Origin: Eledone cirrhosa | Lineage: Eukaryota | Direction of reading: 5' to 3' | DNA: 64,000 nt | Assembly (NCBI GenBank): GCA_964016885.1 | Contig: OZ024760.1 | Location: 30,628,001-30,692,000 of the forward strand | In this document: positions 20,780-61,108 of the stretch, piece by piece | Layout of the letters: the number at the start of each line of letters is the position of its first letter | How positions within the stretch are numbered: position 1 is the stretch's first letter | The notes under the pieces: model-generated | The model's database searches: none | The model's input: the letters and a program-made list of their open reading frames with translations, nothing else | What the model was told of the DNA's origin: nothing | Position numbers and translations under genes: made by a program

Positions 20780-20964
20780 TTTTTTCTACTTTAGGCACAA
20801 GGCCAGCAATTACCCAGTGCATTACTGGTACTTTATTTTATCGACCCCGTAAGGATGAAAGGCAAAGTCAACCTCGGCGGGATTTGAACTCAGATCGTAA
20901 AGGGACATAACTATGCTGGAAAGCATGGCGTCCGACCCTCTACCAATACTGCCAATCCACCGCC
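20780..20964 (-). mobile_element. SINE-like element, full length, subtype A
   Basis: ttttttctactttaggcac...ccaatccaccgcc, 185 bp. Confidence 0.88.
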
Positions 20965-22705: not shown

Positions 22706-22783
22706 ATTACTGGTACTTTATTTTATCGACCCCGTAAGGATGAAAGGCAAAGTCAACCTCGGCGGGATTTGAACTCAGATCGT
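22706..22783 (-). mobile_element. 78-bp internal SINE fragment
   Basis: Same breakpoints as 10589-10666 and 19129-19206. Confidence 0.88.
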
Positions 22784-23809: not shown

Positions 23810-26800
23810 TAATGTAATGTCTAATGTAATGTAATGTAATGTAATATAATGTGTAATGTAATGTAATGTGATGTAATGTAATGTGTAATGTAATGTGTAA
23901 TGTAATGTAATGTAACGTAATGTAATGTAATGTAATGTGTAATGTAATGTGTAATGTAATGTAATGTAACGTAATGTAATGTAATGTGTAATGTAATGTT
24001 ATGTAATGTAATGTAATGTAATGTAATGTAATGTAATGTAATGTAATGTAATGTAATGTAATGTAATGTAATGTAATGTAATGTAATGTAATGTAATGTG
24101 TAATGTAATGTGTAATGTAATGTAATGTATAATGTAATGTAATGTAATGTAATGTAATGTAATGTAATGTAATGTGTAACGTAATGTAATGTAATGTAAT
24201 GTAATGTAATGTGTAATGTAACGTAATGTAATGTAATGTAATGTAATGTAATGTAATGTAATGTAATGTAATGTAATGTAATGTAATGTGTAATGTGTTG
24301 TAATGTAACGTAATGTAATGTAATGTAATATGTAATGTAATGTAATGTAATGTGTAATGTAATGTGTAATGTAATGTAATGTAATGTAATGTAATGTAAT
24401 GTAATGTAATGTAATGTAATGTAATGTGTAATGTAATGTAATGTGTAATGTAATGTAATGTATAATGTAATGTAATGTAATGTAATGTAATGTAATGTAA
24501 TGTGTAACGTAATGTAATGTAATGTAATGTAATGTAATGTGTAATGTAACGTAATGTAATGTAATGTAATGTAATGTAATGTGTAATGTAACGTAATGTA
24601 ATGTAATGTAATGTAATGTAATGTAATGTGTAATGTAATGTAATGTAATGTAATGTAATGTGTAATGTAACGTAATGTAATGTAATGTAATGTAATGTGT
24701 AATGTAATGTAATGTAATGTAATGTAATGTAATGTGTAATGTAATGTAATGTAATGTAATGTAATGTAATGTAATGTATGTGTAATGTAATGTAATGTAA
24801 TGTAATGTGTAATGTAATGTAATGTAATTTAATGTAATGTGTAATGTAATGTAATGTAATGTAATGTAATGTAATGTAATGTGTAATGTAATTTAATGTA
24901 ATGTAATGTATAATGTAATGTAATGTAATATAATGTGTAATGTAATGTAATGTAATGTAATGTAATGTAATGTAATGTAATGTAATGTAACGTATAATGT
25001 AAGGTAACGTAATGTAATGTAACGTAATGTAATGTGTAATATAATGTAATGTAATGTAATGTGTAATGTAACGTAATGTAATGTAATGTAATGTGTATTG
25101 TAATGTAATGTAATGTAATGTAATGTAATGTAATGTAATGTGTAAGGTGTAATGTAATGTAATGTAATGTAATATAATGTAATGTGTAATGTAATGTAAT
25201 GTAATGTGTAATGTAATGTAATGTAATGTGTAATGTAATGTAATGTAATGTAATGTGAAATGTAATGTAATGTAATGTAATGTAATGTAATGTGTATTGT
25301 AATGTAATGTGTAATGTAATGTAATGTAATGTAATGTAATGTAATGTAATGTGTAATGTAATGTAATGTAATGTAATGTGTAATGTAATGTAATGTAATG
25401 TAATGTAATATAATGTAATGTAATGTGTAATGTAATGTAATGTAATGTAATGTGTAATGTAATGTAATGTAATGTAATGTAATGTGTAATGTAATGTAAT
25501 GTAATGTAATGTAATGTGTAATGTCATGTCATGTAATGTAATGTAATGTGTAATGTAATGTAATGTAATATGTAATGTAAGGTAACGTAATGTAATGTAA
25601 TGTAATGTAATGTAATGTGTAATGTAATGTAATGTAATGTAATGTGTAATTTAATGTAATGTAATGAAATGTAATGTAACGTAATGTGTAATGTAATGTA
25701 ATATAATGTAATGTAATGTGTAATGTAATGTAATGTAATGTAATGTAATGTATGGTAATGTAATGTAATGTAATGTGTAATGTAATGTAATGTAATGTAA
25801 TGTAATGTAATGTAATGTAATGTAATGTAAGTAATGTACTGTGTAATGTCATGTAATGTAATATGAAGTGTAATGTAATGTAATGTAATGTAAAGTAATG
25901 TAACGTGTAATGTAACGTAATGTAATGTAATCTAACGTGTAATGTAATGTAATGTAATGTAATGTAATGTAATGTGTAAAGTAATGTAATGTAATATAAT
26001 GTAACGTGTAATGTAATGTAATGTAATGTAATGTAATGTAATATAATGTAATGTAATGTAATGTGTAATGTAATGTAATGTGTAATGTAATGTAATGTAA
26101 CGTAATGTAATGTAATGTAACGTAATGTAATGTAATGTGTAATATAATGTAATGTAATGTAATTTAATGTAATGTAATGTGTAATGTAATGTAATGTGTA
26201 ATGTAATGTAATGTATAATGTAATGTAATGTAATGTAATGTAACGTAATGTAATGTAATGTAATGTAATGTAATGTAATGTAATTTAATGTGTAATGTAA
26301 TGTAATGTGATGTAATGTGTAATGTAATGTAATGTAATGTAATGTAATGTAATATAATGTAATGTAATATAATGTAATGTAATGTGTAATGTAATGTAAT
26401 GTAATGCAATGTAATGTAATATAATGTGTAACGTAATGTAATGTCTAATGTAATGTAATGTAATGTAATATAATGTGTAATGTAATGTAATGTGATGTAA
26501 TGTAATGTGTAATGTAATGTGTAATGTAATGTAATGTAACGTAATGTAATGTAATGTAATGTGTAATGTAATGTGTAATGTAATGTAATGTAACGTAATG
26601 TAATGTAATGTGTAATGTAATGTTATGTAATGTAATGTAATGTAATGTAATGTAATGTAATGTAATGTAATGTAATGTAATGTAATGTAATGTAATGTAA
26701 TGTGTAATGTAATGTGTAATGTAATGTAATGTATAATGTAATGTAATGTAATGTAATGTAATGTAATGTAATGTAATGTGTAACGTAATGTAATGTAATG

Positions 26801-28980
26801 TAATGTAATGTAATGTGTAATGTAACGTAATGTAATGTAATGTAATGTAATGTAATGTAATGTAATGTAATGTAATGTAATGTAATGTAATGTGTAATGT
26901 GTTGTAATGTAACGTAATGTAATGTAATGTAATATGTAATGTAATGTAATGTAATGTGTAATGTAATGTGTAATGTAATGTAATGTAATGTAATGTAATG
27001 TAATGTAATGTAATGTAATGTAATGTGTAATGTAATGTAATGTGTAATGTAATGTAATGTATAATGTAATGTAATGTAATGTAATGTAATGTAATGTAAT
27101 GTGTAACGTAATGTAATGTAATGTAATGTAATGTGTAATGTAACGTAATGTAATGTAATGTAATGTAATGTAATGTAATGTGTAATGTAATGTAATGTAA
27201 TGTAATGTAATGTGTAATGTAACGTAATGTAATGTAATGTAATGTAATGTGTAATGTAATGTAATGTAATGTAATGTAATGTAATGTGTAATGTAATGTA
27301 ATGTAATGTAATGTAATGTAATGTAATGTATGTGTAATGTAATGTAATGTAATGTAATGTGTAATGTAATGTAATGTAATTTAATGTAATGTGTAATGTA
27401 ATGTAATGTAATGTAATGTAATGTAATGTAATGTGTAATGTAATTTAATGTAATGTAATGTATAATGTAATGTAATGTAATATAATGTGTAATGTAATGT
27501 AATGTAATGTAATGTAATGTAATGTAATGTAATGTAATGTAACGTATAATGTAAGGTAACGTAATGTAATGTAACGTAATGTAATGTGTAATATAATGTA
27601 ATGTAATGTAATGTGTAATGTAACGTAATGTAATGTAATGTAATGTGTATTGTAATGTAATGTAATGTAATGTAATGTAATGTAATGTAATGTGTAAGGT
27701 GTAATGTAATGTAATGTAATGTAATATAATGTAATGTGTAATGTAATGTAATGTAATGTGTAATGTAATGTAATGTAATGTGTAATGTAATGTAATGTAA
27801 TGTAATGTGAAATGTAATGTAATGTAATGTAATGTAATGTAATGTGTATTGTAATGTAATGTGTAATGTAATGTAATGTAATGTAATGTAATGTAATGTA
27901 ATGTGTAATGTAATGTAATGTAATGTAATGTGTAATGTAATGTAATGTAATGTAATGTAATATAATGTAATGTAATGTGTAATGTAATGTAATGTAATGT
28001 AATGTGTAATGTAATGTAATGTAATGTAATGTAATGTGTAATGTAATGTAATGTAATGTAATGTAATGTGTAATGTCATGTCATGTAATGTAATGTAATG
28101 TGTAATGTAATGTAATGTAATATGTAATGTAAGGTAACGTAATGTAATGTAATGTAATGTAATGTAATGTGTAATGTAATGTAATGTAATGTAATGTGTA
28201 ATTTAATGTAATGTAATGAAATGTAATGTAACGTAATGTGTAATGTAATGTAATATAATGTAATGTAATGTGTAATGTAATGTAATGTAATGTAATGTAA
28301 TGTATGGTAATGTAATGTAATGTAATGTGTAATGTAATGTAATGTAATGTAATGTAATGTAATGTAATGTAATGTAATGTAAGTAATGTACTGTGTAATG
28401 TCATGTAATGTAATATGAAGTGTAATGTAATGTAATGTAATGTAAAGTAATGTAACGTGTAATGTAACGTAATGTAATGTAATCTAACGTGTAATGTAAT
28501 GTAATGTAATGTAATGTAATGTAATGTGTAAAGTAATGTAATGTAATATAATGTAACGTGTAATGTAATGTAATGTAATGTAATGTAATGTAATATAATG
28601 TAATGTAATGTAATGTGTAATGTAATGTAATGTGTAATGTAATGTAATGTAACGTAATGTAATGTAATGTAACGTAATGTAATGTAATGTGTAATATAAT
28701 GTAATGTAATGTAATTTAATGTAATGTAATGTGTAATGTAATGTAATGTGTAATGTAATGTAATGTATAATGTAATGTAATGTAATGTAATGTAACGTAA
28801 TGTAATGTAATGTAATGTAATGTAATGTAATGTAATTTAATGTGTAATGTAATGTAATGTGATGTAATGTGTAATGTAATGTAATGTAATGTAATGTAAT
28901 GTAATATAATGTAATGTAATATAATGTAATGTAATGTGTAATGTAATGTAATGTAATGCAATGTAATGTAATATAATGTG
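23810..28980. repeat. 2552-bp near-perfect tandem duplication (SINE-free)
   Basis: ORF pairs 24829/27381, 25529/28081 and 26164/28716 translate identically, all at offset 2552. Confidence 0.9.
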
Positions 28981-31900
28981 TAATGTAATGTAATGTAATG
29001 TAATGTGTCATGTAATGTAATGTAATGTGTAATGTAATGTAATGTAATGTAATGTGTAATGTAAGGTAACGTAATGTAATGTAATGTGTAATGTAATGTA
29101 ATGTAAAGTAATGTGTAATGTAATGTAATGTAATGTAATGTGTAATGTAATGTAATGTAACGTAATGTAATGTAATGTAATGTGTAATGTAATGTAATGT
29201 AATGTAATGTAATGTAATGTGTAATGTAATGGAATGTAATGTAACGTAATGTAATGTAATGTAATGTAATGTAATGTAACGTGTAATGTAATGTAATGTA
29301 ATGTAATGTAATGTGTAATGTAATGTTTAATGTAATGTAATGTAATGTAATGTAATGTGTAATGTAATGTAATGTAATGTAATGTAATGTAATGTGTAAT
29401 GTAATGTAATGTAATGTAATGTAATGTGTAATGTAATGTAATGTAATGTAATGTAATGTAATGTAATGTGTAATGTAATGTAATGTAATGTAATGTGTAA
29501 TGTAATGTAATGTAATGTAATGTAATGTGTAATGTCATGTAATGTAATGTAATGTGTAATGTAATGTAATGTAATGTCATGTAATGTAATGTGTAATGTA
29601 AGGTAATGTAATGTAATGCAATGTAATGTAATGTGTAATGTAATGTAATGTAATGTGTAATTTCATTTAATGTCATGTAATGTAATGTAATATAATGTAA
29701 TGTAATGTAATGTAGTGTAATGTAATGTGTAATGTAATGTGTAATGTAATGTAATGTAATGTAATGTAATATAATCTAATGTAATGTAATCTAATGTGTA
29801 AAGTAATGTAATGTAATATAATGTAATGAGTAATGTAATGTAATGTAATGTAATGTAATGTGTAACGTAACGTAATGTAATGTGTAATGTGTAATGTAAT
29901 GTAATGTAATGTAATGTAATGTAATGTGTAATGTAATGTAATGTAATGTAATGTAATGTAATATAATGTAAAGTGTAACGTAATGTAATGTAATGTAATG
30001 TAATGTAATGTAATGTAATGTAATGTAATGTAATATAATGTAATGTAATGTAATGTAATGTAATGTAATGTAATGTAATGTAGTGTAATATAATGTAATA
30101 TAATGTAATGTGTAATGTAATGTAATGTAATGTAATGTGTAATGTAATGTAATGTAATGTAATGTAATGTAATGTAATGTGTAATGTCATGTAATGTAAT
30201 GTAATGTAATGTAATGTAATGTAATGTGTAATGTAAGGTAACGTAATGTAATGTAATGTAATGTGTAATTTAATGTAATGTAATGTAATGTAATGTAATG
30301 TGTAATGTAATGTAATGTAATGTAATGTAATGTAATGTAATGTGTAATGTAATGTAATGTAATGTAATGTAATGTAATGTGTAATGGAATGTAATGTACT
30401 GTAATGTGTAATGGAATGTAATGTAATGTAATGTAATGTAATGTGTAATGTAATGTAATGTAATGTAATGTAATGTAATGTAATGTGTAATGTAATGTAA
30501 TGTAATGTAATATAATATAATATAATATAATATAATATAATATAATATAATATAATATGTAATGTAATGTAATGTAATGTAATGTAATGTAATGTAATGT
30601 GTAATGTAATGTAATGTAATGTAATGTAATGTGTAATGTAATGTAATGTAATGTGTAATGTAATGTAACGTAATGTAATGTAACGTAATGTAATGTAATG
30701 TAACGTAATGTAATGTAATGTAATGTGTAATGTAATGTAATGTGTAATGTAATGTAATGTATAATGTAATGTAATGTAATGTAACGTAATGTAATGTAAT
30801 GTAATGTAATGTAATTTAATGTGTAATGTAATGTAATGTGATGTAATGTGTAATGTAATGTAATGTAATGTAATGTAATGTAATGTAATGTAATATAATG
30901 TAATGTAATATAATGTAATGTAATGTGTAATGTAATGTAATGTAATGCAATGTAATGTAATATAATGTGTAATGTAATGTAATGTAATGTAATGTGTCAT
31001 GCAATGTAATGTAATGTGTAATGTAATGTAATGTAATGTAATGTGTAATGTAAGGTAACGTAATGTAATGTAATGTAATGTGTAATGTAATGTAATGTAA
31101 AGTAATGTGTAATGTAATGTAATGTAATGTAATGTGTAATGTAATGTAACGTAATGTAATGTAATGTAATGTGTAATGTAATGTAATGTAATGTAATGTA
31201 ATGTAATGTAATGTGTAATGTAATGGAATGTAATGTAACGTAATGTAATGTAATGTAATGTAATGTAATGTAACGTGTAATGTAATGTAATGTAATGTAA
31301 TGTAATGTGTAATGTAATGTTTAATGTAATGTAATGTAATGTAATGTAATGTGTAATGTAATGTAATGTAATGTAATGTAATGTAATGTGTAATGTAATG
31401 TAATGTAATGTAATGTAATGTGTAATGTAATGTAATGTAATGTAATGTAATGTAATGTAATGTGTAATGTAATGTAATGTAATGTAATGTGTAATGTAAT
31501 GTAATGTAATGTAATGTGTAATGTCATGTAATGTAATGTAATGTGTAATGTAATGTAATGTAATGTCATGTAATGTAATGTGTAATGTAAGGTAATGTAA
31601 TGTAATGCAATGTAATGTAATGTGTAATGTAATGTAATGTAATGTGTAATTTCATTTAATGTCATGTAATGTAATGTAATATAATGTAATGTAATGTAAT
31701 GTAGTGTAATGTAATGTGTAATGTAATGTGTAATGTAATGTAATGTAATGTAATGTAATATAATCTAATGTAATGTAATCTAATGTGTAAAGTAATGTAA
31801 TGTAATATAAAGTAATGAGTAATGTAATGTAATGTAATGTAATGTAATGTGTAACGTAACGTAATGTAATGTGTAATGTTAAATGTAATGTAATGTAATG

Positions 31901-32560
31901 TAATGTAATGTAATGTAATGTGTAATGTAATGTAATGTAACGTAATGTAATGTAATGTAATGTAATGTGTAATGTAATGTAATGTAATGTAATGTAATGT
32001 AATGTAATATAATGTAAAGTGTAACGTAATGTAATGTAATGTAATGTAATGTAATGTAATGTAATGTAATATAATGTAATGTAATGTAATGTAATGTAAT
32101 GTAATGTAATGTAGTGTAATATAATGTAATATAATGTAATGTGTAATGTAATGTAATGTAATGTAATGTGTAATGTAATGTAATGTAATGTAATGTAATG
32201 TAATGTGTAATGTCATGTAATGTAATGTAATGTAATGTGTAATTTAATGTAATGTAATGTAATGTAATGTGTAATGTAATGTAATGTAATGTAATGTAAT
32301 GTAATGTGTAATGTAATGTAATGTAATGTAATGTAATGTAATGTGTAATGGAATGTAATGTACTGTAATGTGTAATGGAATGTAATGTAATGTAATGTAA
32401 TGTAATGTGTAATGTAATGTAATGTAATGTAATGTAATGTAATGTAATGTAATGTAATGTGTAATGTAATGTAATGTAATGTAATATAATATAATATAAT
32501 ATAATATAATATAATATAATATAATATAATATAATATGTAATGTAATGTAATGTAATGTA
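28720..32560. repeat. ~2.0 kb tandem duplication
   Basis: aatttcatttaatgtcat at ~29659 and ~31648. The ggaatgtaatgtactgt word and an AATAT island occur in both halves. Confidence 0.75.
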
Positions 32561-32925
32561 ATGTAATGTGTAATGTAATGTAATGTAATGTAATGTAATG
32601 TGTAATGTAATGTAATGTAATGTAATGTGTAATGTAATGTAACGTAATGTAATGTAACGTAATGTAATGTAATGTAACGTAATGTAATGTAATGTGTAAT
32701 GTAATGTAATTTAATGTTATGTAATGTAATGTAATGTAATGTAATATAATGTGTAATGTAACGTAATGTAATGTGTAATGTAATGTAATGTGTAATTTAA
32801 TGTAATGTAATGTGTAATGTAATGTAATGTAATGTGTAATGTAATGTAATGTAATGTAATGTAATGTGTAATATAATGTAATGTAACGTAATGTTTAATG
32901 TAATGTAATGTGTAATGTACTGTAA

Positions 32926-33110
32926 TTTTTTCTGCTTTAGGCACAAGGCCAGCAATTACCCAGTGCATTACTGGTACTTTATTTTATCGACCCCGTAAGG
33001 ATGAAAGGCAAAGTCAACCTCGGCGGGATTTGAACTCAGATCGTAAAGGGACATAACTATGCTGGAAAGCATGGCGTCCGACCCTCTACCAATACTGCCA
33101 ATCCACCGCC
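32926..33110 (-). mobile_element. SINE-like element, full length, subtype A
   Basis: 185 bp; private variant ttctgcttt. Confidence 0.88.
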
Positions 33111-35499
33111 AATGTGTAATGTAATGTAATGTGTAATGTAATGTAATGTAATGTAATGTAATGTAATGTAATGTAATGTAATGTAATGTAATGTAATGTG
33201 TATTGTAATGTAATGTAATGTAATGTAATGTAATGTATAATGTAATGTAATGTAACGTAATGTGTAATGTAATGTAATGTAATGTAATATAATGTAATGT
33301 AATGTAATGTAATGTAATGTCATGTAATGTAATGTAATGTAATGTAATGTAATGTAATGTAATGTAATGTGTAATGTAATGTAATGTAATGTAATGTAAT
33401 GTTTAATGTCATGTAATGTAATGTAATGTGTAATGTAATGTAATGTAATGTGTAATGTAAGGTAACGTAATGTAATGTAATGTAATGTGTAATGTAATGT
33501 AATGTAATGTAATGTAATGTGTAATTTAATGTAATGTAATGTAATGTAATGTAATGTAATGTGTAATGTAATGTAATGTAATGTAATGTAATGTAATGTA
33601 ATGTAATGTGTAATGTGTAATTTAATGTAATGTAATGTAACGTAATGTAATGTGTAATGTAACGTAATGTAATGTAATGTAATGTAATGTAATGTATGGT
33701 AATGTAACATAATGTAATGTGTAATGAAATGTAATGTAATGTAATGTAATGTAATGTAATCTAATGTAATGTAATGTAATGTAATGTAATGTAATGTAAT
33801 GTAATGTGTAATGTAATGTAATGTAATGTAATGTAATGCAATGTAATGTGTAATGTAATGTAATGTAATGTAATATAATATAATATAATATAATATAATA
33901 TAATATAATATAATATAATATAATATAATATAATATAATATAATATAATATAACATAACATAATATAATATGTAATGTAATGTAATGTAATGTAATGTAA
34001 AGTGTAATGTAATGTAATGTAATGTAATGTAATGTAATGTGTAATGTAATGTAATGTAATGTAATGTGTAATGTAATGTAATGTAATGTAATGTAATGTA
34101 ATGTAATGTAATGTAATGTAATGTAATGTAATGTGTAATGTAATGTAATGTAATGTAACGTAATGTAATGTAACGTAATGTGTAATGTAATGTAATGTAA
34201 TGTGTAATGTAATGTAATGTAATGTAATGTAATGGAATGTAATGTAATGTAATGTGTAATATAATGTAATGTAATGTGTAATGTAATGTAATGTAATGTA
34301 TAATGTAATGTAATGTAATGTAATGTGTAACGTCATGTAATGTAATGTGTAATGTAATGTAATGTAATGTAATGTAATGTAATGTATAATGTAAGGTAAC
34401 GTAATGTAATGTAACGTAATGTAATGTGTAATATAACGTAATGTAATGTAATGTGTAATGTAATGTAATGTAATGTAGTGTAATGTAATGTAATGTGTAT
34501 TGTAATGTAATGTAATGTAATGTAATGTAATGTAATGCAATGTGTAAGGTGTAATGTAATGTAATGTAATGTAATGTAATATAATGTAATGTGTAATGTA
34601 ATGTGTAATGTAATGTAATGTAATGTGTAATGTAATGTAATGTAATGTAATGCAATGTTATGTAATGTAATGTGTAATGTAATGTAATGTAATGTGTAAT
34701 GTAATGTAATATAATATAATATAATATAATATAATATAATATAATATAATATAACATAATATAATATGTAATGTAATGTAATGTAATGTAATGTAATGTA
34801 ATGTAACGTAATGTAATGTGTAATGTAACGTAATGTATAATGTAATGTAATGTAATGTAAAGTAATGTAATGTGTAACCTAATGTAATGTAATGTAATAT
34901 AATGTAATGTAATGTAATGTAATGTAATGTAATGTGTAATGTGTAATGTAATGTAATGTAATGTAATGTAACGTAATGTAATGTGTAATGTAATGTAATG
35001 TAATATAATGTAATGTAATGTAATGTAATGTAATGTAACGTAATGTAATGTGTAATGTAATGTAATGTAATGTAATGTAACGTGTAAGTTAATGTAATGT
35101 AATGTAATGTAATGTGTAATGTAATGTAATGTAATGTGTAATGTGTAATGTGTAATGTAATGTAATGTAATGTAATGTAATGTAATGTGTAATGTAATGT
35201 AATGTATAATGTAATGTAATGTAATGTAATATAATGTAATGTAATGTAATGTAATGTAATGTAATGTAATGTGTAATGTAATGTAATGTAATATAATGTG
35301 TAAGTTAATGTAATGTAATGTAATGTAATGTAATGTAATGTAATGTAATGTGTAATGTAATGTAATGTAATGTAATGTAATGTAATGTAATGTAATGTGT
35401 AATGTAATGTAATGTAATGTAATGTGTAATGTAATGTAATGTAATGTAATGTAATGTAATGTAATGTAATGTAATGTGTAATGTAATGTAATGTGTAAC

Positions 35500-38400
35500 G
35501 TAATGTAATGTAATGTAATGTGTAATGTCGTGTAATGTAATGCAATGTAATGTAATGTGTAATGTAATGTAATGTAATGTAATGTAATGTAATGTAATGT
35601 AATGTAATGTAATGTAATGTAACGTGTAATGTAATGTAATGTAATGTAATATGTAATTTCATGTAATTTAATGTAATGTAATGTAATGTAATGTAATGTG
35701 TAATGTGTAATGTAATGTAATGTAATGTAATGTAATGTAATGTGTAATGTAATGTGTAATGTAATGTAATGTAATGTAACGTTTAATGTAACGCAATGTA
35801 ATGTAATGTAATGTGTAATGTAATGTAATGTAATGTAATGTAATGTAACGTAATGTAATGTCTAATGTAATGTAATTTAATGTAATGTAATGTGTAATGT
35901 AATGTAATGTAATGTAATGTAATGTAATGTAATGTAATGTAATGTAATGTAATGTGAAATGTAATGTGTAATGTAATGTAATGTATAATGTAATGTAATG
36001 TAATGTAATGTAATGTAATGTAATGTAATGTAATGTAATGTAATGTGTAACGTAATGTAATGTAATGTAATGTAATGTAATGTGTAATGTAACGTAATGT
36101 AATGTAATTGTTTCTACTTTAGGCACAAGGCCAGCAAATTACCCAGTGCATTACTGGTACTTTATTTTATCGACCCCGTAAGGATGAAAGGCAAAGTCAA
36201 CCTTGGTGGGATGTAATGTAATGTAATGTAATGTAATGTAATGTGTAATGTAATGTAATGTAATGTAATGTAATGTAATGTAATGTGTAATGTGTTGTAA
36301 TGTAACGTAATGTAATGTAATGTAATATGTAATGTAATGTAATGTAATGTGTAATGTAATGTGTAATGTAATGTAATGTAATGTAATGTAATGTAATGTA
36401 ATGTAATGTAATGTGTAATGTAATGTAATGTGTAATGTAATGTAATGTATAATGTAATGTAATGTAATGTAATGTAATGTAATGTAATGTGTAACGTAAT
36501 GTAATGTAATGTAATGTAATGTGTAATGTAACGTAATGTAATGTAATGTAATGTAATGTAATGTAATGTGTAATGTAATGTAATGTAATGTAATGTAATG
36601 TAATGTGTAATGTAACGTAATGTAATGTAATGTAATGTAATGTGTAATGTAATGTAATGTAATGTAATGTAATGTAATGTAATGTGTAATGTATTGTAAT
36701 GTAATGTAATGTAATGTAATGTAATGTAATGTAATGTAATGTAATGTATGTGTAATGTAATGTAATGTAATGTAATGTGTAATGTAATGTAATGTAATGT
36801 AATGTAATGTGTAATGTAATGTAATGTAATGTAATGTAATGTAATGTAATGTGTAATGTAATGTAATGTAATGTAATGTATAATGTAATGTAATGTAATA
36901 TAATGTGTAATGTAATGTAATGTAATGTAATGTAATGTAATGTAATGTAATGTAATGTATAATGTAAGGTAACGTAATGTAATGTAACGTAATGTAATGT
37001 GTAATATAATGTAATGTAATGTAATGTGTAATGTAACGTAATGTAATGTAATGTAATGTAATGTAATGTAATGTAATGTAATGTAATGTAATGTGTAAGG
37101 TGTAATGTAATGTAATGTAATGTAATATAATGTAATGTGTAATGTAATGTAATGTAATGTGTAATGTAATGTAATGTAATGTGTAATGTAATGTAATGTA
37201 ATGTAATGTAATGTAATGTAATGTAATGTAATGTAATGCAATGTAATGTAATGTAATGTGTAATGTAATGTAATGGGTAATGTAATGTAATGTAATATAA
37301 TATAATATAATATAATATAATATAATATAATATAATATAATATAATATAATATAACATAATATAATATGTAATGTAATGTAATGTAATGTAATGTAACGT
37401 AATGTAATGTGTAATGTCATGTAATGTAATGTAATGTAATGTAATATAATGTAATGTAATGTAATGTAATGTAGTGTAGTGTAATGTGTAATGTAAGGTA
37501 ACGTAATGCAATGTAATGTAATGTAATGTGTAATGTAATGTAATGTAATGTAATGTAATGTAATGTATAATGTAAGGTAACGTAATGTAATGTAACGTAA
37601 TGTAATGTGTAATATAATGTAATGTAATGTAATGTGTAATGTAACGTAATGTAATGTAATGTAATGTAATGTGTATTGTAATGTAATGTAATGTAATGTA
37701 ATGTAATGTAATGTAATGTAATGTAATGTGTAAGGTGTAATGTAATGTAATGTAATATAATGTAATGTGTAATGTAATGTAATGTAATGTGTAATGTAAT
37801 GTAATGTAATGTAATGTGTAATGTAATGTAATGTAATGTAATGTAATGCAATGTAATGTAATGTGTAACGTAATGTAATGTAATGTGTAATGTAATGTAA
37901 TATAATATAATATAATATAATATAATATAATATAATATAATATAATATAACATAATATAATATGTAAGGTAATGTAATGTGTAATATAATGTAATGTAAT
38001 GTAATGTAATGTGTAATATAATGTAATGTAATGTAATGTAATGTAATGTGTAATGTAATGTTTAATGTAATGTCATGTAATGTAATGTGTAATGTAATGT
38101 AATGTAATGTAATGTAATGTAATGTAATGTAATGTAATGTGTAATGTAATGTAATGTAATGTGTAATGTAATGTAATGTAATGTAATGTAATGTAATGTG
38201 TAACGTAATGTAATGTAATGTAATGTGTAATGTCATGTAATGTAATGTAATGTGTAATGTAATGTAATGTAATGTAATGTAATGTAATGTAATGTGTAAT
38301 GTAATGTGTAATGTAATGTAATGTAACGTAATGTAATGTAATGTAATGTGTAATGTAATGTAATGTAATGTAATGTAATGTAATGTAATGTAATGTAATG

Positions 38401-41400
38401 TAATGTAATGTAATGTGTAATGTAATGTGTAATGTAATGTAATGTAATGTATAATGTAATGTAATGTAATATAATGTAATGTAATGTAATGTAATGTAAT
38501 GTGTAACGTAATGTAATGTAATGTAATGTAATGTGTAATGTAACGTAATGTAATGTAATGTAATGTAATGTGTAATGTAATGTAATGTAATGTGTAATGT
38601 AATGTGTAATGTAATGTAATGTAACGTAATGTAATGTAATGTGTAATGTAATGTTATGTAATGTAATGTAATGTAATGTAATGTAATGTAATGTAATGTA
38701 ATGTAATGTAATGTAATGTAATGTAATGTGTAATGTAATGTAATGTGTAATGTAATGTAATGTATAATGTAATGTAATGTAATGTAATGTAATGTAATGT
38801 AATGTAATGTGTAACGTAATGTAATATAATGTAATGTGTAACGTAATGTAATGTAATGTAATGTGTAATGTAATGTAATGTAACGTAATGTAATGTAATG
38901 TAATATGTAATGTAATGTAATGTAATGTGTAATGTAATGTAATGTAATGTAATGTAATGTGTAATGTATTGTAATGTAATGTAATGTAATGTAATGTAAT
39001 GTAATGTATGTGTAATGTAATGCAATGTAATGTAATGTGTAATGTAATGTAATGTAATGTAATGTAATGTGTAATGTAATGTAATGTAATGTAATGTGTA
39101 ATGTAATGTAATGTAATGTATAACGTAATGTAATGTAATATAATGTGTAATGTAATGTAATGTAATGTAATGTAATGTAATGTAATGTATAATGTAAGGT
39201 AACGTAATGTAATGTAACGTAATGTAATGTGTAATATAATGTAATGTAATGTAATGTGTAATGTAACGTAATGTAATGTAATGTAATGTGTATTGTAATG
39301 TAATGTAATGTAATGTAATGTAATGTAATGTAATGTAATGTAATGTGTAAGGTGTAATGTAATGTAATGTAATGTAATATAATGTAATGTGTAATGTAAT
39401 GTAATGTGTAATGTAATGTAATGTAATGTAATGTGTAATGTAATGTAATGTAATGTAATGCAATGTAATGTAATGTAATGTGTAATGTAATGTAATGGGT
39501 AATGTAATGTAATGTAATATAATATAATATAATATAATATAATATAATATAATATAATATAATATAATATAATATAATATAACATAATATAATATGTAAT
39601 GTAATGTAATGTAATGTAATGTAATGTGTAATGTAATGTAATGTAATGTAATGTAATGTAATGTAATGTAATGTGTAATGTAATGTAATGTAATGTAATG
39701 TGTAATGTAATGTAATGTAATGTAATGTAATGTAATGTAATGTAATGTAATGTGTAATGTAATGTAATGTGTAACGTAATGTAATGTAATGTAATGTGTA
39801 ATGTCGTGTAATGTAATGTAATGTGTAATGAAATGTAATGTAATGTAATGTAATGTAATGTAATGTGTAATGTAAGGTGATGTAATGTAATGTAATGCAA
39901 TGTAATGTAATGTGTAATGTAATGTAATGTAATGTAATGTAATGTAATGTAATGTAATGTAATGTAATGTAATGTAATGTAACGTGTAATGTAATGTAAT
40001 GTAATGTAATATGTAATTTCATGTAATTTAATGTAATGTAATGTAATGTAATGTAATGTGTAATGTGTAATGTAATGTAATGTAATGTAATGTAATGTAA
40101 TGTAATGTGTAATGTAATGTGTAATGTAATGTAATGTAATGTAACGTTTAATGTAACGCAATGTAATGTAATGTAATGTGTAATGTAATGTAATGTAATG
40201 TAATGTAATGTAACGTAATGTAATGTCTAATGTAATGTAATTTAATGTAATGTAATGTGTAATGTAATGTAATGTAATGTAATGTAATGTAATGTAATGT
40301 AATGTAATGTAATGTAATGTGAAATGTAATGTGTAATGTAATGTAATGTATAATGTAATGTAATGTAATGTAATGTAATGTAATGTAATGTAATGTAATG
40401 TAATGTAATGTGTAACGTAATGTAATGTAATGTAATGTAATGTAATGTGTAATGTAACGTAATGTAATGTAATGTAATGTAATGTGTAATGTAATGTAAT
40501 GTAATGTAATGTAATGTGTAATGTAATGTAATGTAATGTAATGTAATGTAATGTAATGTGTAATGTGTTGTAATGTAACGTAATGTAATGTAATGTAATA
40601 TGTAATGTAATGTAATGTAATGTGTAATGTAATGTGTAATGTAATGTAATGTAATGTAATGTAATGTAATGTAATGTATTGTAATGTGTAATGTAATGTA
40701 ATGTGTAATGTAATGTATAATGTAATGTAATGTAATGTAATGTAATGTAATGTAATGTGTAACGTAATGTAATGTAATGTAATGTAATGTGTAATGTAAC
40801 GTAATGTAATGTAATGTAATGTAATGTAATGTAATGTGTAATGTAATGTAATGTAATGTAATGTAATGTAATGTGTAATGTAACGTAATGTAATGTAATG
40901 TAATGTAATGTGTAATGTAATGTAATGTAATGTAATGTAATGTAATGTAATGTGTAATGTATTGTAATGTAATGTAATGTAATGTAATGTAATGTAATGT
41001 AATGTAATGTAATGTATGTGTAATGTAATGTAATGTAATGTAATGTGTAATGTAATGTAATGTAATGTAATGTAATGTGTAATGTAATGTAATGTAATGT
41101 AATGTAATGTAATGTAATGTGTAATGTAATGTAATGTAATGTAATGTATAATGTAATGTAATGTAATATAATGTGTAATGTAATGTAATGTAATGTAATG
41201 TAATGTAATGTAATGTAATGTAATGTAATGTATAATGTAAGGTAACGTAATGTAATGTAACGTAATGTAATGTGTAATATAATGTAATGTAATGTAATGT
41301 GTAATGTAACGTAATGTAATGTAATGTAATGTAATGTAATGTAATGTAATGTAATGTAATGTAATGTAATGTGTAAGGTGTAATGTAATGTAATGTAATG

Positions 41401-43860
41401 TAATATAATGTAATGTGTAATGTAATGTAATGTAATGTGTAATGTAATGTAATGTAATGTGTAATATAATGTAATGTAATGTAATGTAATGTAATGTAAT
41501 GCAATGTAATGTAATGTAATGTGTAATGTAATGTAATGGGTAATGTAATGTAATGTAATATAATATAATATAATATAATATAATATAATATAATATAATA
41601 TAATATAATATAATATAACATAATATAATATGTAATGTAATGTAATGTAATGTAATGTAACGTAATGTAATGTGTAATGTCATGTAATGTAATGTAATGT
41701 AATGTAATATAATGTAATGTAATGTAATGTAATGTAGTGTAGTGTAATGTGTAATGTAAGGTAACGTAATGCAATGTAATGTAATGTAATGTGTAATGTA
41801 ATGTAATGTAATGTAATGTAATGTAATGTATAATGTAAGGTAACGTAATGTAATGTAACGTAATGTAATGTGTAATATAATGTAATGTAATGTAATGTGT
41901 AATGTAACGTAATGTAATGTAATGTAATGTAATGTGTATTGTAATGTAATGTAATGTAATGTAATGTAATGTAATGTAATGTAATGTAATGTGTAAGGTG
42001 TAATGTAATGTAATGTAATATAATGTAATGTGTAATGTAATGTAATGTAATGTGTAATGTAATGTAATGTAATGTAATGTGTAATGTAATGTAATGTAAT
42101 GTAATGTAATGCAATGTAATGTAATGTGTAACGTAATGTAATGTAATGTGTAATGTAATGTAATATAATATAATATAATATAATATAATATAATATAATA
42201 TAATATAATATAACATAATATAATATGTAAGGTAATGTAATGTGTAATATAATGTAATGTAATGTAATGTAATGTGTAATATAATGTAATGTAATGTAAT
42301 GTAATGTGTAATGTAATGTTTAATGTAATGTCATGTAATGTAATGTGTAATGTAATGTAATGTAATGTAATGTAATGTAATGTAATGTAATGTAATGTGT
42401 AATGTAATGTAATGTAATGTGTAATGTAATGTAATGTAATGTAATGTAATGTAATGTGTAACGTAATGTAATGTAATGTAATGTGTAATGTCATGTAATG
42501 TAATGTAATGTGTAATGTAATGTAATGTAATGTAATGTAATGTAATGTAATGTGTAATGTAATGTGTAATGTAATGTAATGTAACGTAATGTAATGTAAT
42601 GTAATGTGTAATGTAATGTAATGTAATGTAATGTAATGTAATGTAATGTAATGTAATGTAATGTAATGTAATGTGTAATGTAATGTGTAATGTAATGTAA
42701 TGTAATGTATAATGTAATGTAATGTAATATAATGTAATGTAATGTAATGTAATGTAATGTGTAACGTAATGTAATGTAATGTAATGTAATGTGTAATGTA
42801 ACGTAATGTAATGTAATGTAATGTAATGTGTAATGTAATGTAATGTAATGTGTAATGTAATGTGTAATGTAATGTAATGTAACGTAATGTAATGTAATGT
42901 GTAATGTAATGTTATGTAATGTAATGTAATGTAATGTAATGTAATGTAATGTAATGTAATGTAATGTAATGTAATGTAATGTAATGTGTAATGTAATGTA
43001 ATGTGTAATGTAATGTAATGTATAATGTAATGTAATGTAATGTAATGTAATGTAATGTAATGTAATGTGTAACGTAATGTAATGTAATGTAATGTGTAAC
43101 GTAATGTAATGTAATGTAATGTGTAATGTAATGTAATGTAACGTAATGTAATGTAATGTAATATGTAATGTAATGTAATGTAATGTGTAATGTAATGTAA
43201 TGTAATGTAATGTAATGTGTAATGTATTGTAATGTAATGTAATGTAATGTAATGTAATGTAATGTATGTGTAATGTAATGCAATGTAATGTAATGTGTAA
43301 TGTAATGTAATGTAATGTAATGTAATGTGTAATGTAATGTAATGTAATGTAATGTGTAATGTAATGTAATGTAATGTATAACGTAATGTAATGTAATATA
43401 ATGTGTAATGTAATGTAATGTAATGTAATGTAATGTAATGTAATGTATAATGTAAGGTAACGTAATGTAATGTAACGTAATGTAATGTGTAATATAATGT
43501 AATGTAATGTAATGTGTAATGTAACGTAATGTAATGTAATGTAATGTGTATTGTAATGTAATGTAATGTAATGTAATGTAATGTAATGTAATGTAATGTA
43601 ATGTGTAAGGTGTAATGTAATGTAATGTAATGTAATATAATGTAATGTGTAATGTAATGTAATGTGTAATGTAATGTAATGTAATGTAATGTGTAATGTA
43701 ATGTAATGTAATGTAATGCAATGTAATGTAATGTAATGTGTAATGTAATGTAATGGGTAATGTAATGTAATGTAATATAATATAATATAATATAATATAA
43801 TATAATATAATATAATATAATATAATATAACATAATATAATATGTAATGTAATGTAATGT
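35500..43860. repeat. ~4.26 kb tandem higher-order duplication
   Basis: Identical ORFs 37417..37953 and 41680..42216 (offset 4263). Shared words gtcgtgt, gtagtgtagt and gggtaat. Confidence 0.85.
36108..36212 (-). mobile_element. 5'-truncated SINE copy (105 bp; 3' tail intact, cut within B box)
   Basis: ttgtttctactttaggcac...gtcaaccttggtgggat, then satellite. Variants gcaaattacc and ccttggtggg. Confidence 0.88.
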
Positions 43861-46800
43861 AATGTAATGTAATGTAATGTAATGTGTAATGCCATGTAAT
43901 GTAATGTAATGTAATGTAATATAATGTAATGTAATGTAATGTAATGTAATGTAATGTAATGTGTAATGTAAGGTAACGTAATGTAATGTAATGTAATGTA
44001 ATGTGTAATGTAATGTAATGTAATGTAATGTAATGTAATGTAATGTAATGTATAATGTAAGGTAACGTAATGTAATGTAACGTAATGTAATGTGTAATAT
44101 AATGTAATGTAATGTAATGTAATGTGTAATGTAACGTAATGTAATGTAATGTAATGTAATGTGTATTGTAATGTAATGTAATGTAATGTAATGTAATGTA
44201 ATGTAATGTGTAAGGTGTAATGTAATGTAATGTAATGTAATATAATGTAATGTGTAATGTAATGTAATGTAATGTGTAATGTACTGTAATGTAATGTAAT
44301 GTGTAATGTAATATAATGTAATGTAATGTAATGCAATGTAATGTAATGTAATGTGTAACGTAATGTAATGTAATGTGTAATGTAATGTAATGTAATGTGT
44401 AATGTACTGTAATGTAATGTAATGTGTAATGTAATATAATGTAATGTAATGTAATGCAATGTAATGTAATGTAATGTGTAACGTAATGTAATGTAATGTG
44501 TAATATAATGTAATGTAATGTAATGTAATGTGTAATGTAATGTTTAATGTAATGTCATGTAATGTAATGTGTAATGTAATGTAATGTAATGTAATGTAAT
44601 GTAATGTAATGTAATGTAATGTGTAATGTAATGTAATGTAATGTAATGTGTAATGTAATGTAATGTAATGTAATGTAATGTAATGTAATGTAATGTAATG
44701 TGTAACGTAATGTAATGTAATGTAATGTGTAATGTCATGTAATGTAATGTAATGTAATGTAATGTAATGTAATGTAATGTAATGTAATGTAATGTAATGT
44801 AATGTAATGTGTAATGTAAGGTAATGTAATGTAATGTAATGCAATGTAATGTAATGTGTAATGTAATGTAATGTAATGTAATGTAATGTAATGTAATGTA
44901 TTGTAATGTAATGTAATGTAATGTAATGTAATGTAATGTAATGTAATGTAATGTAATGTGTAATGTAATGTAATGTAATGTAATGTAATGTGTAATGTAA
45001 TGTAATGTAATGTAATGTAATGTGTAATGTAATGTAATGTAATGTAATGTAACGTGTAATGTAATGTAATGTAATGTAATATGTAATTTCATGTAATTTA
45101 ATGTATTGTAATGTAATGTAATGTAATGTAATGTAATGTAATATAATGTGTAATGGGTAATGTAATGTAATGTAATGTGTAATGTAATGTGTAATGTAAT
45201 GTAATGTAATGTAATATAATCTAATGTAATGTAATGTAAAAAGTAATGTAATGTAATATAATGTAATGTACTGTAATGTAATGTGTAATGTAATGTAATG
45301 TGTAATGTAATGTAATGTAATGTGTAATGTCATGTAATGTAATATGATGTGTAATGTAATGTACTGTAATGTAATGTAATGTAATGTAACGTTTAATGTA
45401 ACGCAATGTAATGTAATGTAATGTAATGTAATGTGTAATGTAATGTAATGTAATGTAATGTAATGTAATGTAATGTAATGTAATGTAATGTCTAATGTAA
45501 TGTAATGTAATGTAATGTAATGTGTAATGTAATGTAATGTAATGTAATGTAATGTGTAATGTAATGTGTAATGTAATGTAATGTAACGTAATGTAATGTA
45601 ATGTAATGTGTAATGTAATGTGTAATGTAATGTAATGTAACGTAATGTAATGTAATGTGTAATGTAATGTTATGTAATGTAATGTAATGTAATGTAATGT
45701 AATGTAATGTAATGTGTAATGTAATGTAATATAATGTAATGTGTAATGTAATGTAATGTATAATGTAATGTAATGTAATGTAATGTAATGTAATGTAATG
45801 TAATGTAATGTAATGTAATGTGTAACGTAATGTAATGTAATGTAATGTAATCTGTAATGTAACGTAATGTAATGTAATGTAATGTAATGTAATGTGTAAT
45901 GTATTGTAATGTAACGTAATGTAATGTAATGCAATGTGTTAATGTGATGTAATGTAATGTGTAATGTAATGTAATGTAATGTAATGTAATGTAATGTAAC
46001 GTAACGTAATGTAATGTAATGTATGTGTAATGTAATGTAATGTAATGTAACGTGTAATGTAATGTAATGTAATGTAATGTAATGTGTAATGTAATGTAAT
46101 GTAATGTAATGTATAATGTAATGTAATGTAATGTAATGTAATGTAATGTGTAATGTAATGTAATGTAATGTAATGTAATGTGTAATGTATTGTAATGTAA
46201 TGTAATGTAATGTAATGTAATGTAATGTATGTGTAATGTAATGTAATGTAATGTAATGTGTAATGTAATGTAATGTAATGTAATGTAATGTAATGTAATG
46301 TGTAATGTAATGTAATGTAATGTAATGTGTAATGTAATGTAATGTGTAACGTAATGTAATGTAATGTAATGTAATGTAATGTAATGTAATGTGTAATGTA
46401 ATGTAATGTAATGTAATGTAATGTAATGTAATGTAATGTAATGTAATGCAATGTGTAATGTAATGTAATGTAATGTAATGTGTAACGTAATGTAATGTAA
46501 TGTAATGTAATGTAATGTGTAATGTGTAATGTAATGTAATGTAATGTAATGTAATGTAATGTGTAATGTAATGTAATGTAATGTAATGTAATGTAATGTA
46601 ATGTAATGTGTAATGTAATGTAATGTAATGTAATGTGTAATGTAATGTAATGTAATGTAATGTGTAATGTAATGTAATGTAATGTAATGTAATGTAATGT
46701 AATGTGTAATGTAATGTAATGTAATGTAATGTAATGTGTAATGTAATGTGTAATGTAATGTAATGTAACGTAATGTAATGTAATGTAATGTGTAATGTAA

Positions 46801-48854
46801 TGTGTAATGTAATGTAATGTAACGTAATGTAATGTAATGTGTAATGTTATGTAATGTAATGTAATGTAATGTAATGTAATGTAATGTAATGTAATGTAAT
46901 GTGTAATGTAATGTAATGTAATGTGTAATGTAATGTAATGTATAATGTAATGTAATGTAATGTAATGTAATGTAATGTAATGTAATGTAATGTAATGTGT
47001 AACGTAATGTAATGTAATGTAACGTAATGTAATGTAGTGTAATGTAATGTAATGTAATGAGTAATGTATTGTAATGTAACGTAATGTAATGTAATGTAAT
47101 GTGTAATGTAATGTAATGTAATGTGTAATGTAATGTAATGTAATGTAATGTAATGTAATGTAACGTGTAATGTAATGTAATGTAATGTAATGTAATGTGT
47201 AATGTAATGTAATGTAATGTAATGTAATGTGTAATGTAATGTAAAGTAATGTAATGTATAATGTAATGTAATGTAATGTAATGTGTAATGTAATGTAATG
47301 TAATGTAATGTAATGTAATGTAATGTAATGTAATGTAAAGTAATGTAACGTAATGTTTAATGTAATGTAATGTGTAATGTAATGTAATCTGTAATATAAT
47401 GTAATGTAATGTGATGTAATGTAATGTAATGTGTAATGTAATGTAATGTAATGTAATGTAATGTAATGTAATGTAATGTAATGTGTAATGTAATGTAATG
47501 TGTAATGTAATGTAATGTATAATGTCATGTAATGTAATGTAATGTAATGTAATGTAATGTGTAACGTAAGGTAATGTAATGTAATGTAATGTAATGTTAT
47601 GTGTAATGTGTAATGTGTAATGTAATGTAATGTAATGTAATGTAATGTGTAATGTAATGTAATGTAACGTAATGTAATGTAGTGTAATGTAATATGTAAT
47701 GTAATATAATGTAATGTAATGTAATGTAATGTGTAATGTAATGTAATGTAATGTAATGTGTCATGTAATGTAATGTAATGTAATGTGTAATGTAATGTAA
47801 TGTAATGTAATGTAATGTAATGTAATGTAATGTGTAATGTAATGTAATGTAATGTAATGTAATGTGTAATGTAATGTGTAATGTAATGTGTAATGTAATG
47901 TAATGTAATGTGTAATGTAATGTAATGTAATGTAATGTAATATAATGTAATGTAATGTGTAATGTAATGTAATGTAATGTAATGTAATGTAATGTAATGT
48001 AATGTAATGTGTAATGTAATGTAATCTAATGTAATGTAATGTGTAATGTAATTTAATGTAATGTAACGTGTAATATCATGTAATGTAATGTAATGTGTAA
48101 TGTAATGTAATGTAATGTGTAATGTTAGGTAACGTAATGTAATGTAATGTAATGTAATGTGTAATGTAGTGTAATGTAATGTGTAATTTAATGTAATGTA
48201 ATGTAATGTAATGTGTAATGTAATGTAATGTAATGTAATGTAATGTGTAATATGTAATGTAATGTAATGTGTAATATGTAATGTAATGTAATGTAATGTA
48301 ATGTAATGTAATGTAATGTAATGTGCAATGTAATGTAATGTAATGTAATGTAATGTATGGTAATGTAATGTAACGTAATGTGTAATGTAATGTAATGTAA
48401 TGTAATGTAATGTGTAATGTAATGTAATGTAATGTAATATAATATAATATAAAATAATATAATATAATATAATATAATATAACATAATATAATATAATAT
48501 AATATAATATGTAATGTAATGTAACGTGTAATGTAATGTAATGTAATGTAATGTAATGTAATGTGTAATGTAATGTATTGTAATGTAATGTAATGTAATG
48601 TAATGTGTAATGTAATGTAATGTAATGTAATGTAATGTAATGTGTAATGTAATGTAATGTGTAATGTAATGTAATATAATGTTATGTGTAATGTAATGTA
48701 ATGTAATGTAATGTAATGTAATGTAATGTAATGTAACGTGTAATATAATGTAATGTAATGTGTAATGTAATGTAAGGTAATGTAATGTAATGTAATGTAA
48801 TGTAATGTAGTGTAACGTAATGTTTAATGTAATGTAATGTGTAATGTAATGTAA

Positions 48855-49039
48855 TTGTTTCTACTTTAGGCACAAGGCCAGCAATTACCCAGTGCATTAC
48901 TGGTACTTTATTTTATCGACCCCGTAAGGATGAAAGGCAAAGTCAACCTCGGCGGGATTTGAACTCAGATCGTAAAGGGACGTAACTATGCTGGAAAACA
49001 TGGCGTCCGACCCTCTACCGATACTGCCAATCCACCGCC
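48855..49039 (-). mobile_element. SINE-like element, full length, subtype B
   Basis: Diagnostic ttgtttc, gggacgtaac, ggaaaacatgg, ctaccgatac. Confidence 0.88.
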
Positions 49040-50685: not shown

Positions 50686-50870
50686 TTGTTTCTACTTTAG
50701 GAACAAGGCCAGCAAATACCCAGTGCATTACTGGTACTTTATTTTATCGACCCCGTAAGGATGAAAGTCAAAGTCAACCTCGGTGGGATTTGAACTCAGA
50801 TCGTAAAGGGACGTAACTATGCTGGAAAGCATGGCGTCTGACCCTCTACCGATACTGCCAATCCACCGCC
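50686..50870 (-). mobile_element. SINE-like element, full length, subtype C
   Basis: Diagnostic gcaaataccc and gtctgaccc; private ttaggaac, aaagtcaaag, ctcggtggg. Confidence 0.88.
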
Positions 50871-61104: not shown

Positions 61105-61108
61105 AAAA
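61105..61108 (-). terminator. Possible Pol III terminator (T4) immediately 3' of SINE copy 61112
   Basis: The minus strand reads ...GTAGAAACAATTATTTTAC. T4 runs are very rare elsewhere on this strand. Confidence 0.35.

What the first reader, a model, noticed from the sequence alone, without database searches (positions are those of the whole stretch)
36108..36212. 5'-truncated SINE at a site that is empty in paralogous blocks: possible secondary insertion into the satellite
Seen: the copy sits between gtgtaatgtaacgtaatgtaatgtaat and a downstream marker gtgttgtaatgtaacg (~36292). The same context is SINE-free in the 4.26-kb partner block (~40450-40570) and at ~24210-24300 and ~26815-26905. The copy keeps the exact 3' end, is cut within the B box with an 'at' microhomology, and lacks the gtttaat...gtgtaat flank shared by most full-length copies. 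Established: an intact 3' end with a truncated 5' end is typical of target-primed reverse transcription. Inference: either an independent insertion guided by the ATTAC tail pairing with the GTAAT target (satellite homing), or ectopic gene conversion from another copy.
Basis: partly seen in the sequence, partly recalled or inferred. Interest (0 to 1): 0.7.

Follow-up and report, generated by a model that had tools for sequence, protein, structure and literature searches.

The report
Young SINE landed in satellite DNA
A small jumping-gene copy sits inside a long block of simple repeated DNA and is identical to 14 copies scattered elsewhere in the genome, so it most likely jumped in recently by the ordinary route; its family shows no sign of seeking out this repeat.

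Summary
A 104-nt, 5'-truncated tRNA-type SINE (36109-36212, minus strand) fills a site that is empty in the only three paralogues found in 1.26 Mb read. It matches 14 copies on other contigs exactly and none of the other 164 SINE hits in the array, so local gene conversion is very unlikely. Flanks group as ((filled, 40565),(24295, 26899)), so one recent gain is the simplest history; a 15-bp target duplication fits. Homing is not supported. ATTAC is target DNA, not tail: of 63,723 exact family 3' ends, 51,689 are followed by ATTAT and 892 by ATTAC, and 0 of 30 sampled ATTAC cases lie in such arrays. In the array about 22 independent insertions all face one way, 9 of them on rare ATTAT monomers (3.5% of sites), and event density is no higher than the genome mean. 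The partner LINE was not identified and raw reads were not checked. The scan had no note on this sequence; it noted a retroposed insertion in another satellite of this genome. Ordinary biology, low interest.

The parts
36109..36212 (-). 5'-truncated SINE copy, positions 81-184 of the family; member of a very young sub-subfamily
   Evidence: 15 exact copies genome-wide, 14 of them on other contigs
36211..36212 (-). 2-nt microhomology at the 5' junction, within the B-box-like motif
   Evidence: Sequence against full-length copies; B-box consensus recalled
36094..36108 (.). Three pentamers at the SINE 3' junction: target site, one copy of the likely 15-bp target duplication; its first four bases on the minus strand match the family's 3' overlap
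   Evidence: L003: duplication 15, gap 0; length cannot be fixed uniquely in a periodic target
36213..36227 (.). Other copy of the likely 15-bp target duplication (first three of six pentamers)
36292..36307 (+). Variant-monomer marker that identifies the paralogous site
   Evidence: 4 occurrences in 1.262 Mb
40459..40564 (.). Empty site in the sister block (4.27-kb duplication), with an extra 32-bp unit block
24223..24294 (.). Empty site, outgroup paralogue C (13 pentamers and one 7-mer)
26827..26898 (.). Empty site, outgroup paralogue D (13 pentamers and one 7-mer)
1..64000 (.). Host pentamer (GTAAT) satellite with 7-mer variants; part of an array of at least 1.25 Mb on G000:C21

Best explanation
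This is a 5'-truncated copy of an abundant tRNA-type SINE, identical to 14 copies on other contigs, that was most likely inserted recently and independently into the satellite by target-primed reverse transcription. Inferred steps: a LINE-encoded enzyme nicked the satellite at a pyrimidine-ATTA site; the SINE RNA's ATT-type 3' end paired with four target bases, which fixes the orientation; reverse transcription stopped 104 nt in; the cDNA joined the target through a 2-nt microhomology, leaving a duplication of about 15 bp. The insertion probably post-dates the 4.27-kb block duplication. The satellite pentamer is a second-best target (the family prefers ATTAT), and is hit because it offers about 190,000 such sites, not because the element homes to it. 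The mobilising LINE is not identified; a young CR1-type LINE with the same kind of tail is a candidate only.
For: Exact 104-nt match: 15 places, this one and 14 on C2, C3, C4, C5, C10, C11, C24 and C92. 13 of those 14, checked against the 14th, match over 551 further upstream bases up to their own 5' ends, so the group is very young. In the array, 1 of 165 hits carries the copy's diagnostic haplotype; of 153 hits aligned over at least 95 nt the nearest other differs at 2 sites. Blocks A and B differ by 3 true substitutions in about 3,870 aligned bases and share two bases against C and D. Target duplications of 9 bp or more flank 38 of 59 dispersed copies; all 38 begin ATTA and 35 of 38 follow C or T. 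51,689 of 63,723 exact 3' ends are followed by ATTAT, 892 by ATTAC. All 165 array hits share one orientation. About 22 events, 9 on ATTAT monomers that are 3.5% of sites (binomial P about 3e-8). Per-site use of ATTAC: 6.9e-5 in the array, about 0.8-1.1e-4 genome-wide.
Against: The target is periodic, so the duplication length and the exact pre-insertion allele cannot be fixed; the sister site has an extra 32-bp block and five rather than six leading pentamers. The flank grouping rests on few substitutions. No LINE sharing the SINE's 3' sequence was found in 30 RT loci or 30 tail-only loci. The 22 events are my hand grouping of 32 junction keys. Array expansion dilutes events per kb, so a higher rate per unit time could be hidden; 2 copies of the 917-copy young subfamily lie in the array against 0.37 expected (P 0.054; 0.31 without this copy). 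Raw reads were not examined.
Confidence: 0.82

Rival explanations
1. Same retrotransposition, but earlier: the SINE entered the common ancestor of blocks A and B and was then deleted precisely from B by slippage or unequal exchange between flanking pentamers.
For: Pentamer flanks allow a clean deletion, and B has been rearranged at this very site (extra 32-bp block). The sequence divergence of the SINE group is too low to date against the 0.08% between A and B.
Against: Needs two events instead of one; C and D are empty; no second copy of this junction exists in 1.216 Mb of array.
Confidence: 0.08
2. Satellite homing: the SINE carries an ATTAC tail that pairs with the pentamer and directs it to such arrays.
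For: All 165 array hits face one way; the 18 copies followed by three ATTAC units all lie in this array; only one insert of another kind was seen in 1.216 Mb.
Against: 81% of 3' ends are followed by ATTAT, 1.4% by ATTAC; 27 of the 892 ATTAC cases are in the part of the array read; 0 of the first 30 on C1 lie in ATTAC arrays, and in 15 of 30 the ATTAC recurs at the 5' side as part of the target duplication; 13 of 22 events have an exact 3' 24-mer against 25.9 expected at genome density; ATTAT monomers are preferred about 19-fold per site within the array.
Confidence: 0.04
3. Blocks A and B are two alleles assembled in tandem, or the insert is an assembly error; the SINE would then be a heterozygous insertion or not real.
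For: A and B are 99.9% alike in substitutions, and satellite arrays are hard to assemble (general knowledge).
Against: A and B also differ by several unit-count changes along 4 kb; the insert has the family's correct 3' target overlap and a rare haplotype, which an error would hardly produce.
Confidence: 0.04
4. Ectopic gene conversion from another SINE copy in the array, for example the eight copies truncated one base further along (about 33-57 kb past the window's right end).
For: Those copies end at position 81 against 82 here in the numbering and have three pentamers at the 3' side; chimeric copies do occur in the array (61845).
Against: It needs 3 or more changes that all coincide with the diagnostics of the dispersed group; in the tree none of the 21 other array representatives falls with this copy (weak support 86/79); dispersed donors lack satellite flanks.
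Confidence: 0.02

Closest known systems
SINEs and LINEs with 3' microsatellite tails that overlap the target (RTE-, CR1- and L2-related; PMC6007223, abstract and sections 15 and 18 read)
   Same: The target duplication starts with the bases of the 3' repeat; the paper describes an overlap of one to several bp between element end and target for CR1, L2 and RTE clades, read as RNA-target pairing that primes reverse transcription.
   Different: The overlap here is longer and stricter (ATTA in 38 of 38 duplications). Most duplications here are 13-22 bp, whereas that paper found most animal RTE-related ones no longer than 13 bp. Its T-stretch about 10 nt upstream is not evident here (38 sites).
5'-truncated LINE-mediated inserts joined by annealing (PMC4245944, abstract only)
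   Same: 5' truncation with a short microhomology and a target duplication; the abstract describes annealing and direct 5'-end joining.
   Different: That work is on de novo L1 and zebrafish LINE inserts in cell lines; here it is a genomic SINE copy with an unknown partner.
Microsatellite-targeting non-LTR elements such as Dong (R4 clade) in TAA repeats (target specificity recalled; PMC3774820 passages show Dong flanked by TAA repeats)
   Same: AT-rich, ATT/TAA-type target preference.
   Different: This SINE inserts at short ATTAT sites all over the genome, mostly outside repeat arrays, and disfavours the host pentamer; no R4/Dong partner was found or searched for specifically.
Octopus tRNA-derived SINEs (OR2 named as a CORE SINE in PMC4758252, passages; 11.6% SINE content and 4,544 recently active, mostly unclassified SINE insertions in Octopus vulgaris in PMC13282606, passages)
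   Same: A very abundant, recently active tRNA-type SINE in a large animal genome. That the host is an octopus is my recall of the SINE's sequence plus earlier AI notes; not tested here.
   Different: No published consensus could be compared, so the family and its central domain (a Deu/Nin-like or Sauria-like body, from memory) are unassigned.
SINE-derived satellites of squamates (PMC10702118, search listing and start of abstract only)
   Same: SINE sequence amplified in tandem arrays; here one older insertion has about 73 copies and another about 25 through block duplication.
   Different: The satellite unit here is a pentamer unrelated to the SINE; the SINEs are passengers, and the focal copy is single.

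Membership tests
tRNA-derived SINE | Short (under 500 nt), non-coding, dispersed in high copy number | tested here: met
   184 nt full length; 63,723 exact 3' ends genome-wide
tRNA-derived SINE | tRNA-related head with A and B boxes | tested here: inconclusive
   A- and B-box-like motifs are visible in full-length copies (consensus recalled), but ARAGORN and Rfam find no tRNA in the window and the fold of the head is not a cloverleaf
tRNA-derived SINE | Target-site duplications, fixed 3' end, variable 5' truncation | tested here: met
   38 of 59 dispersed copies with duplications of 9 bp or more; 5' starts from 1 to 129
tRNA-derived SINE | Pol III transcription | not testable with these tools
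   No stranded small-RNA or Pol III data examined
SINE with a LINE-derived 3' tail (RTE, CR1, L2 or R4 partner) | 3' sequence shared with an autonomous LINE in the same genome | tested here: inconclusive
   The 30 best RVT_1 loci are one CR1-type family with the same ATT-repeat tail but no shared 3' sequence; 30 of 257 tail-only matches were SINE variants or very short SINE copies. 150 of 118,944 RT candidates were scored, so other LINEs were not seen
RTE-related SINE insertion signature (PMC6007223) | T-stretch about 10 nt upstream of the duplication; duplications mostly no longer than 13 bp | tested here: not met
   At -10, A 16 and T 15 of 38; most duplications are 13-22 bp. Small sample
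Deu/Nin, Meta, CORE, V or Ceph SINE superfamilies | Conserved central domain | not tested
   No domain consensus was available in the passages read; resemblance to a Deu/Nin- or Sauria-like body is recalled only
Repeat-homing non-LTR element (Dong type) | Most insertions lie in one tandem repeat | tested here: not met
   58 of 63,723 exact 3' ends lie in the 1.216 Mb of array read, and they collapse to 13 events
Repeat-homing non-LTR element (Dong type) | Element tail equals the target repeat | tested here: not met
   ATTAT follows 51,689 ends, ATTAC 892; ATTAC recurs in the 5' duplication in 15 of 30 cases

The most novel reading that the evidence does not exclude
The megabase pentamer array is a selective sink for this one SINE family: it admits it in one orientation only, through a near-cognate four-base overlap, excludes almost every other mobile element, and is hit faster per unit time than array expansion lets one see. 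The 22 or so events and their later amplification would then be both a natural target-specificity library and an internal clock for satellite turnover.
Probability: 0.12. Interest if true: 0.5.

Novelty: new member of a known kind. Interest (0 to 1): 0.2.

Why it matters
As it stands, little: it is one recent copy among more than 63,000, placed by a known mechanism. Its use is as a marker. It shows that the family was active after or around a 4.27-kb satellite duplication whose copies differ by only 0.08%, and the array gives a clean in-genome measure of target preference (ATTAT over ATTAC by about 19-fold per site, strict orientation). If polymorphic insertions proved enriched in the array, it would be a case of a satellite acting as a selective SINE sink.

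Tried and rejected
ARAGORN and Rfam on the window: no hits. ATTAC as a tail: rejected. Local donor for conversion: none among 165 array hits. More paralogues of the site to root the flank tree: none beyond the four in 1.262 Mb. Partner LINE: RVT_1 search gave one young CR1-type family without shared 3' sequence; its target duplications could not be read clearly in 10 fetched copies; a tail-only pattern gave SINE variants in 30 of 30 loci looked at, of 257 matches. RTE-type T-stretch upstream of the cut: not seen. The SINE tree (76 rows: 22 array representatives, 54 of 59 dispersed copies, five under 100 nt left out) is poorly resolved, and L001-L030 were chosen for likeness to the focal copy, so only the absence of other array copies from its group is informative. 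Paper searches turned up no description of this family or this satellite in their listings; seven searches do not show that none is in print, and supplements were not opened. PMC11062924 (passages) gave only a methods note on polymorphic elements in human centromeres and is not relied on. Whether other arrays of this pentamer exist elsewhere in the genome was not determined. Raw reads and expression were not examined.

Full report
Setting. The window is G000:C21:30,628,001-30,692,000 in a 3.0-Gb assembly of 1,796 contigs. It is one pentamer satellite (GTAAT, with 7-mer variants), with no tRNA gene or Rfam match. I read the contig without a break from 29.740 to 31.002 Mb: the array ends at 30.956 Mb and starts between 29.653 and 29.700 Mb. 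That the host is an octopus is recalled from the SINE's sequence and repeated in earlier AI notes; I did not test it.

The observation. The insert lies at 36109-36212 on the minus strand. It has the family's exact 3' end and starts at position 81 of 184, inside the B-box-like motif, with two bases that fit both SINE and satellite (B-box consensus recalled). The downstream marker occurs four times in 1.262 Mb, all in the window: 24295 (C), 26899 (D), 36292 (A, filled) and 40565 (B). Between the upstream variant monomer and the marker, C and D have 13 pentamers and a 7-mer; B has 5, 7-mer, 5, 7-mer, 7, 7-mer; A has 3, SINE, 6, 7-mer, 7, 7-mer. 10 of 11 full-length copies in the window share a left flank that this copy lacks.

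Gain or loss. A and B differ by 4 substitutions in 3,877 aligned bases, one of them an alignment artefact inside the SINE, so 3 (0.08%), plus unit-count changes. In 800 bp downstream, C and D show no substitution between them and both differ from A and B at the same two sites. With ((A,B),(C,D)) and only A filled, one gain on A is the shortest history. Gain before the A-B duplication with loss from B needs two steps but cannot be excluded, because B is rearranged at the site and pentamer flanks allow clean deletion. A perfect 15-bp duplication flanks the copy; in a periodic target this fits but does not prove a target duplication.

Where it came from. The copy differs from the usual array copy by one extra base near the 3' end and two substitutions after the B box. 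The exact 104-mer occurs 15 times in the genome: here and on C2, C3 (2), C4 (4), C5 (2), C10 (2), C11, C24 and C92. 13 of these 14, compared with the 14th, match over 551 further upstream bases up to their own 5' ends, so the group is very young and is still making copies with different truncation points. In the array, 1 of 165 hits has this haplotype; of 153 hits aligned over at least 95 nt the nearest other differs at 2 sites and 24 at 3. A tree of 76 copies places it with dispersed copies and none of 21 other array representatives, with weak support and a sample biased towards look-alikes. Conversion from a local copy is therefore very unlikely, and the dispersed look-alikes have no satellite flanks to pair with.

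Tail and target. The family's exact 3' 24-mer occurs 63,723 times; 51,689 (81%) are followed by ATTAT and 892 (1.4%) by ATTAC. Among 59 dispersed copies not chosen for their flanks, 38 have a duplication of 9 bp or more; all 38 begin ATTA, 36 ATTAT, and the base before is C in 18 and T in 17. Among the first 30 ATTAC-followed copies on C1 (three are one tandem triplicate), none lies in an ATTAC array, and in 15 the ATTAC recurs at the 5' side within the duplication. The ATTAC units next to the focal copy are thus target DNA. The inferred RNA end is ATT-type and pairs with four target bases here. Such 3' overlaps are described for CR1, L2 and RTE elements and read as priming by RNA-target pairing (PMC6007223, abstract and sections 15 and 18 read); 5' joining by annealing is described in PMC4245944 (abstract only).

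Is there homing? All 165 hits in 1.216 Mb of array face one way, while the 7 hits beyond the array's end lie on both strands. This follows from strand asymmetry: one strand has 189,339 ATTAC and 6,965 ATTAT sites, the other 299 and 73. The 165 hits fall into 32 junction keys, which I grouped by hand into about 22 events; one event has about 73 copies through block duplication. 9 of 22 sit on ATTAT monomers, 3.5% of sites (binomial P about 3e-8), a preference of about 19-fold per site. Use of ATTAC per site is 6.9e-5 in the array and roughly 0.8-1.1e-4 genome-wide, the latter from site densities in 272 kb and 64 kb of sampled DNA. 13 of the 22 events have an exact 3' 24-mer against 25.9 expected at genome density. 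Against this reading: expansion of the array dilutes events per kb; 2 of the 917 exact copies of the young subfamily lie in the array against 0.37 expected (P 0.054; 0.31 without the focal copy); the 18 copies followed by three ATTAC units are all in this array, though most are duplicates of few events; and almost no other element is present. Whether other arrays of this pentamer exist was not determined. On balance the satellite is a dense field of second-best targets, not a home.

Partner. The 30 best RVT_1 loci belong to one young endonuclease-RT LINE, CR1-type by a recalled motif, which ends in an ATT repeat but shares no 3' sequence with the SINE. Only 150 of 118,944 candidates were scored. 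A search for the tail without the SINE body gave 257 matches; the 30 examined were SINE variants or very short copies. The RTE-type T-stretch upstream of the cut is not evident and duplications are mostly 13-22 bp. The partner is open.

Comparison and verdict. It works like an ordinary LINE-mobilised SINE with a microsatellite-type tail, and unlike true repeat-homing elements such as Dong (specificity recalled; PMC3774820 passages show TAA-repeat flanks). Abundant, recently active and mostly unclassified SINEs are reported for Octopus vulgaris (PMC13282606, passages). The central domain could not be assigned from the passages read (PMC4758252, PMC5786205, PMC11481361); supplements were not opened and may hold the consensus sequences. 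The scan's index had nothing for this SINE sequence and noted a retroposed insertion in another satellite of this genome. Verdict: real, recent, independent insertion (about 0.9 including the earlier-gain variant); homing and local conversion not supported; new member of a known kind; interest 0.2.

Noticed in passing
G000:C21 about 29.70-30.956 Mb: The satellite array is at least 1.25 Mb long, keeps one strand orientation throughout, and in the 1.216 Mb read holds 165 hits of one SINE family and only one other insert of 45 bp or more apart from variant-monomer runs.
   Followed up: yes
window 10591-10664, 19131-19204, 22708-22781 (three more left of the window): 74-bp SINE copies that lack both ends; the 3' end stops at an internal site in phase with the satellite and the 5' side has four 7-mers in a row. 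Internal priming or a later deletion; not resolved.
   Followed up: partly
window 61845-62031: Looks chimeric: left flank of the common full-length class, right flank and variants of the 61107 class, which points to unequal exchange within SINE copies in the array.
   Followed up: partly
G000:C21:30726742, 30774853, 30783589, 29770792, 30950142: Other independent insertions whose target duplications (about 15-20 bp) carry variant monomers and can therefore be read directly.
   Followed up: partly
L264-L293, L324-L333: A young CR1-type LINE (endonuclease and RT, many copies with a 945-aa open frame, about 4.9 kb, copies 95.7-99.96% alike) ends in an ATT repeat; the SINE has inserted into its tail (L004, L023) and 3' UTR (L287). 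Clade name rests on a recalled C-terminal motif.
   Followed up: partly
L001-L030, L069-L098, L114-L143: 5' truncation points of dispersed copies seem to cluster around positions 63-99 of 184, near the B box, where this copy and an eight-copy array class also end. Small sample, partly biased by the query.
   Followed up: no
L294, L299, L305, L309-L312: A longer relative of the SINE with about 30 extra bases before the tail; its signature motifs were not found in the array but occur 14 times in 272 kb of SINE-centred loci.
   Followed up: partly
G000:C21:30346513-30346581: A single 69-bp insert unrelated to this SINE, probably a fragment of another repeat.
   Followed up: no
window, e.g. 1405-1459, 33875-33969, 56328-56432; G000:C21 30.11-30.32 Mb: Runs of variant pentamers (A-for-G type in the window, C-for-T type further left) form local sub-arrays that mark higher-order blocks.
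   Followed up: no
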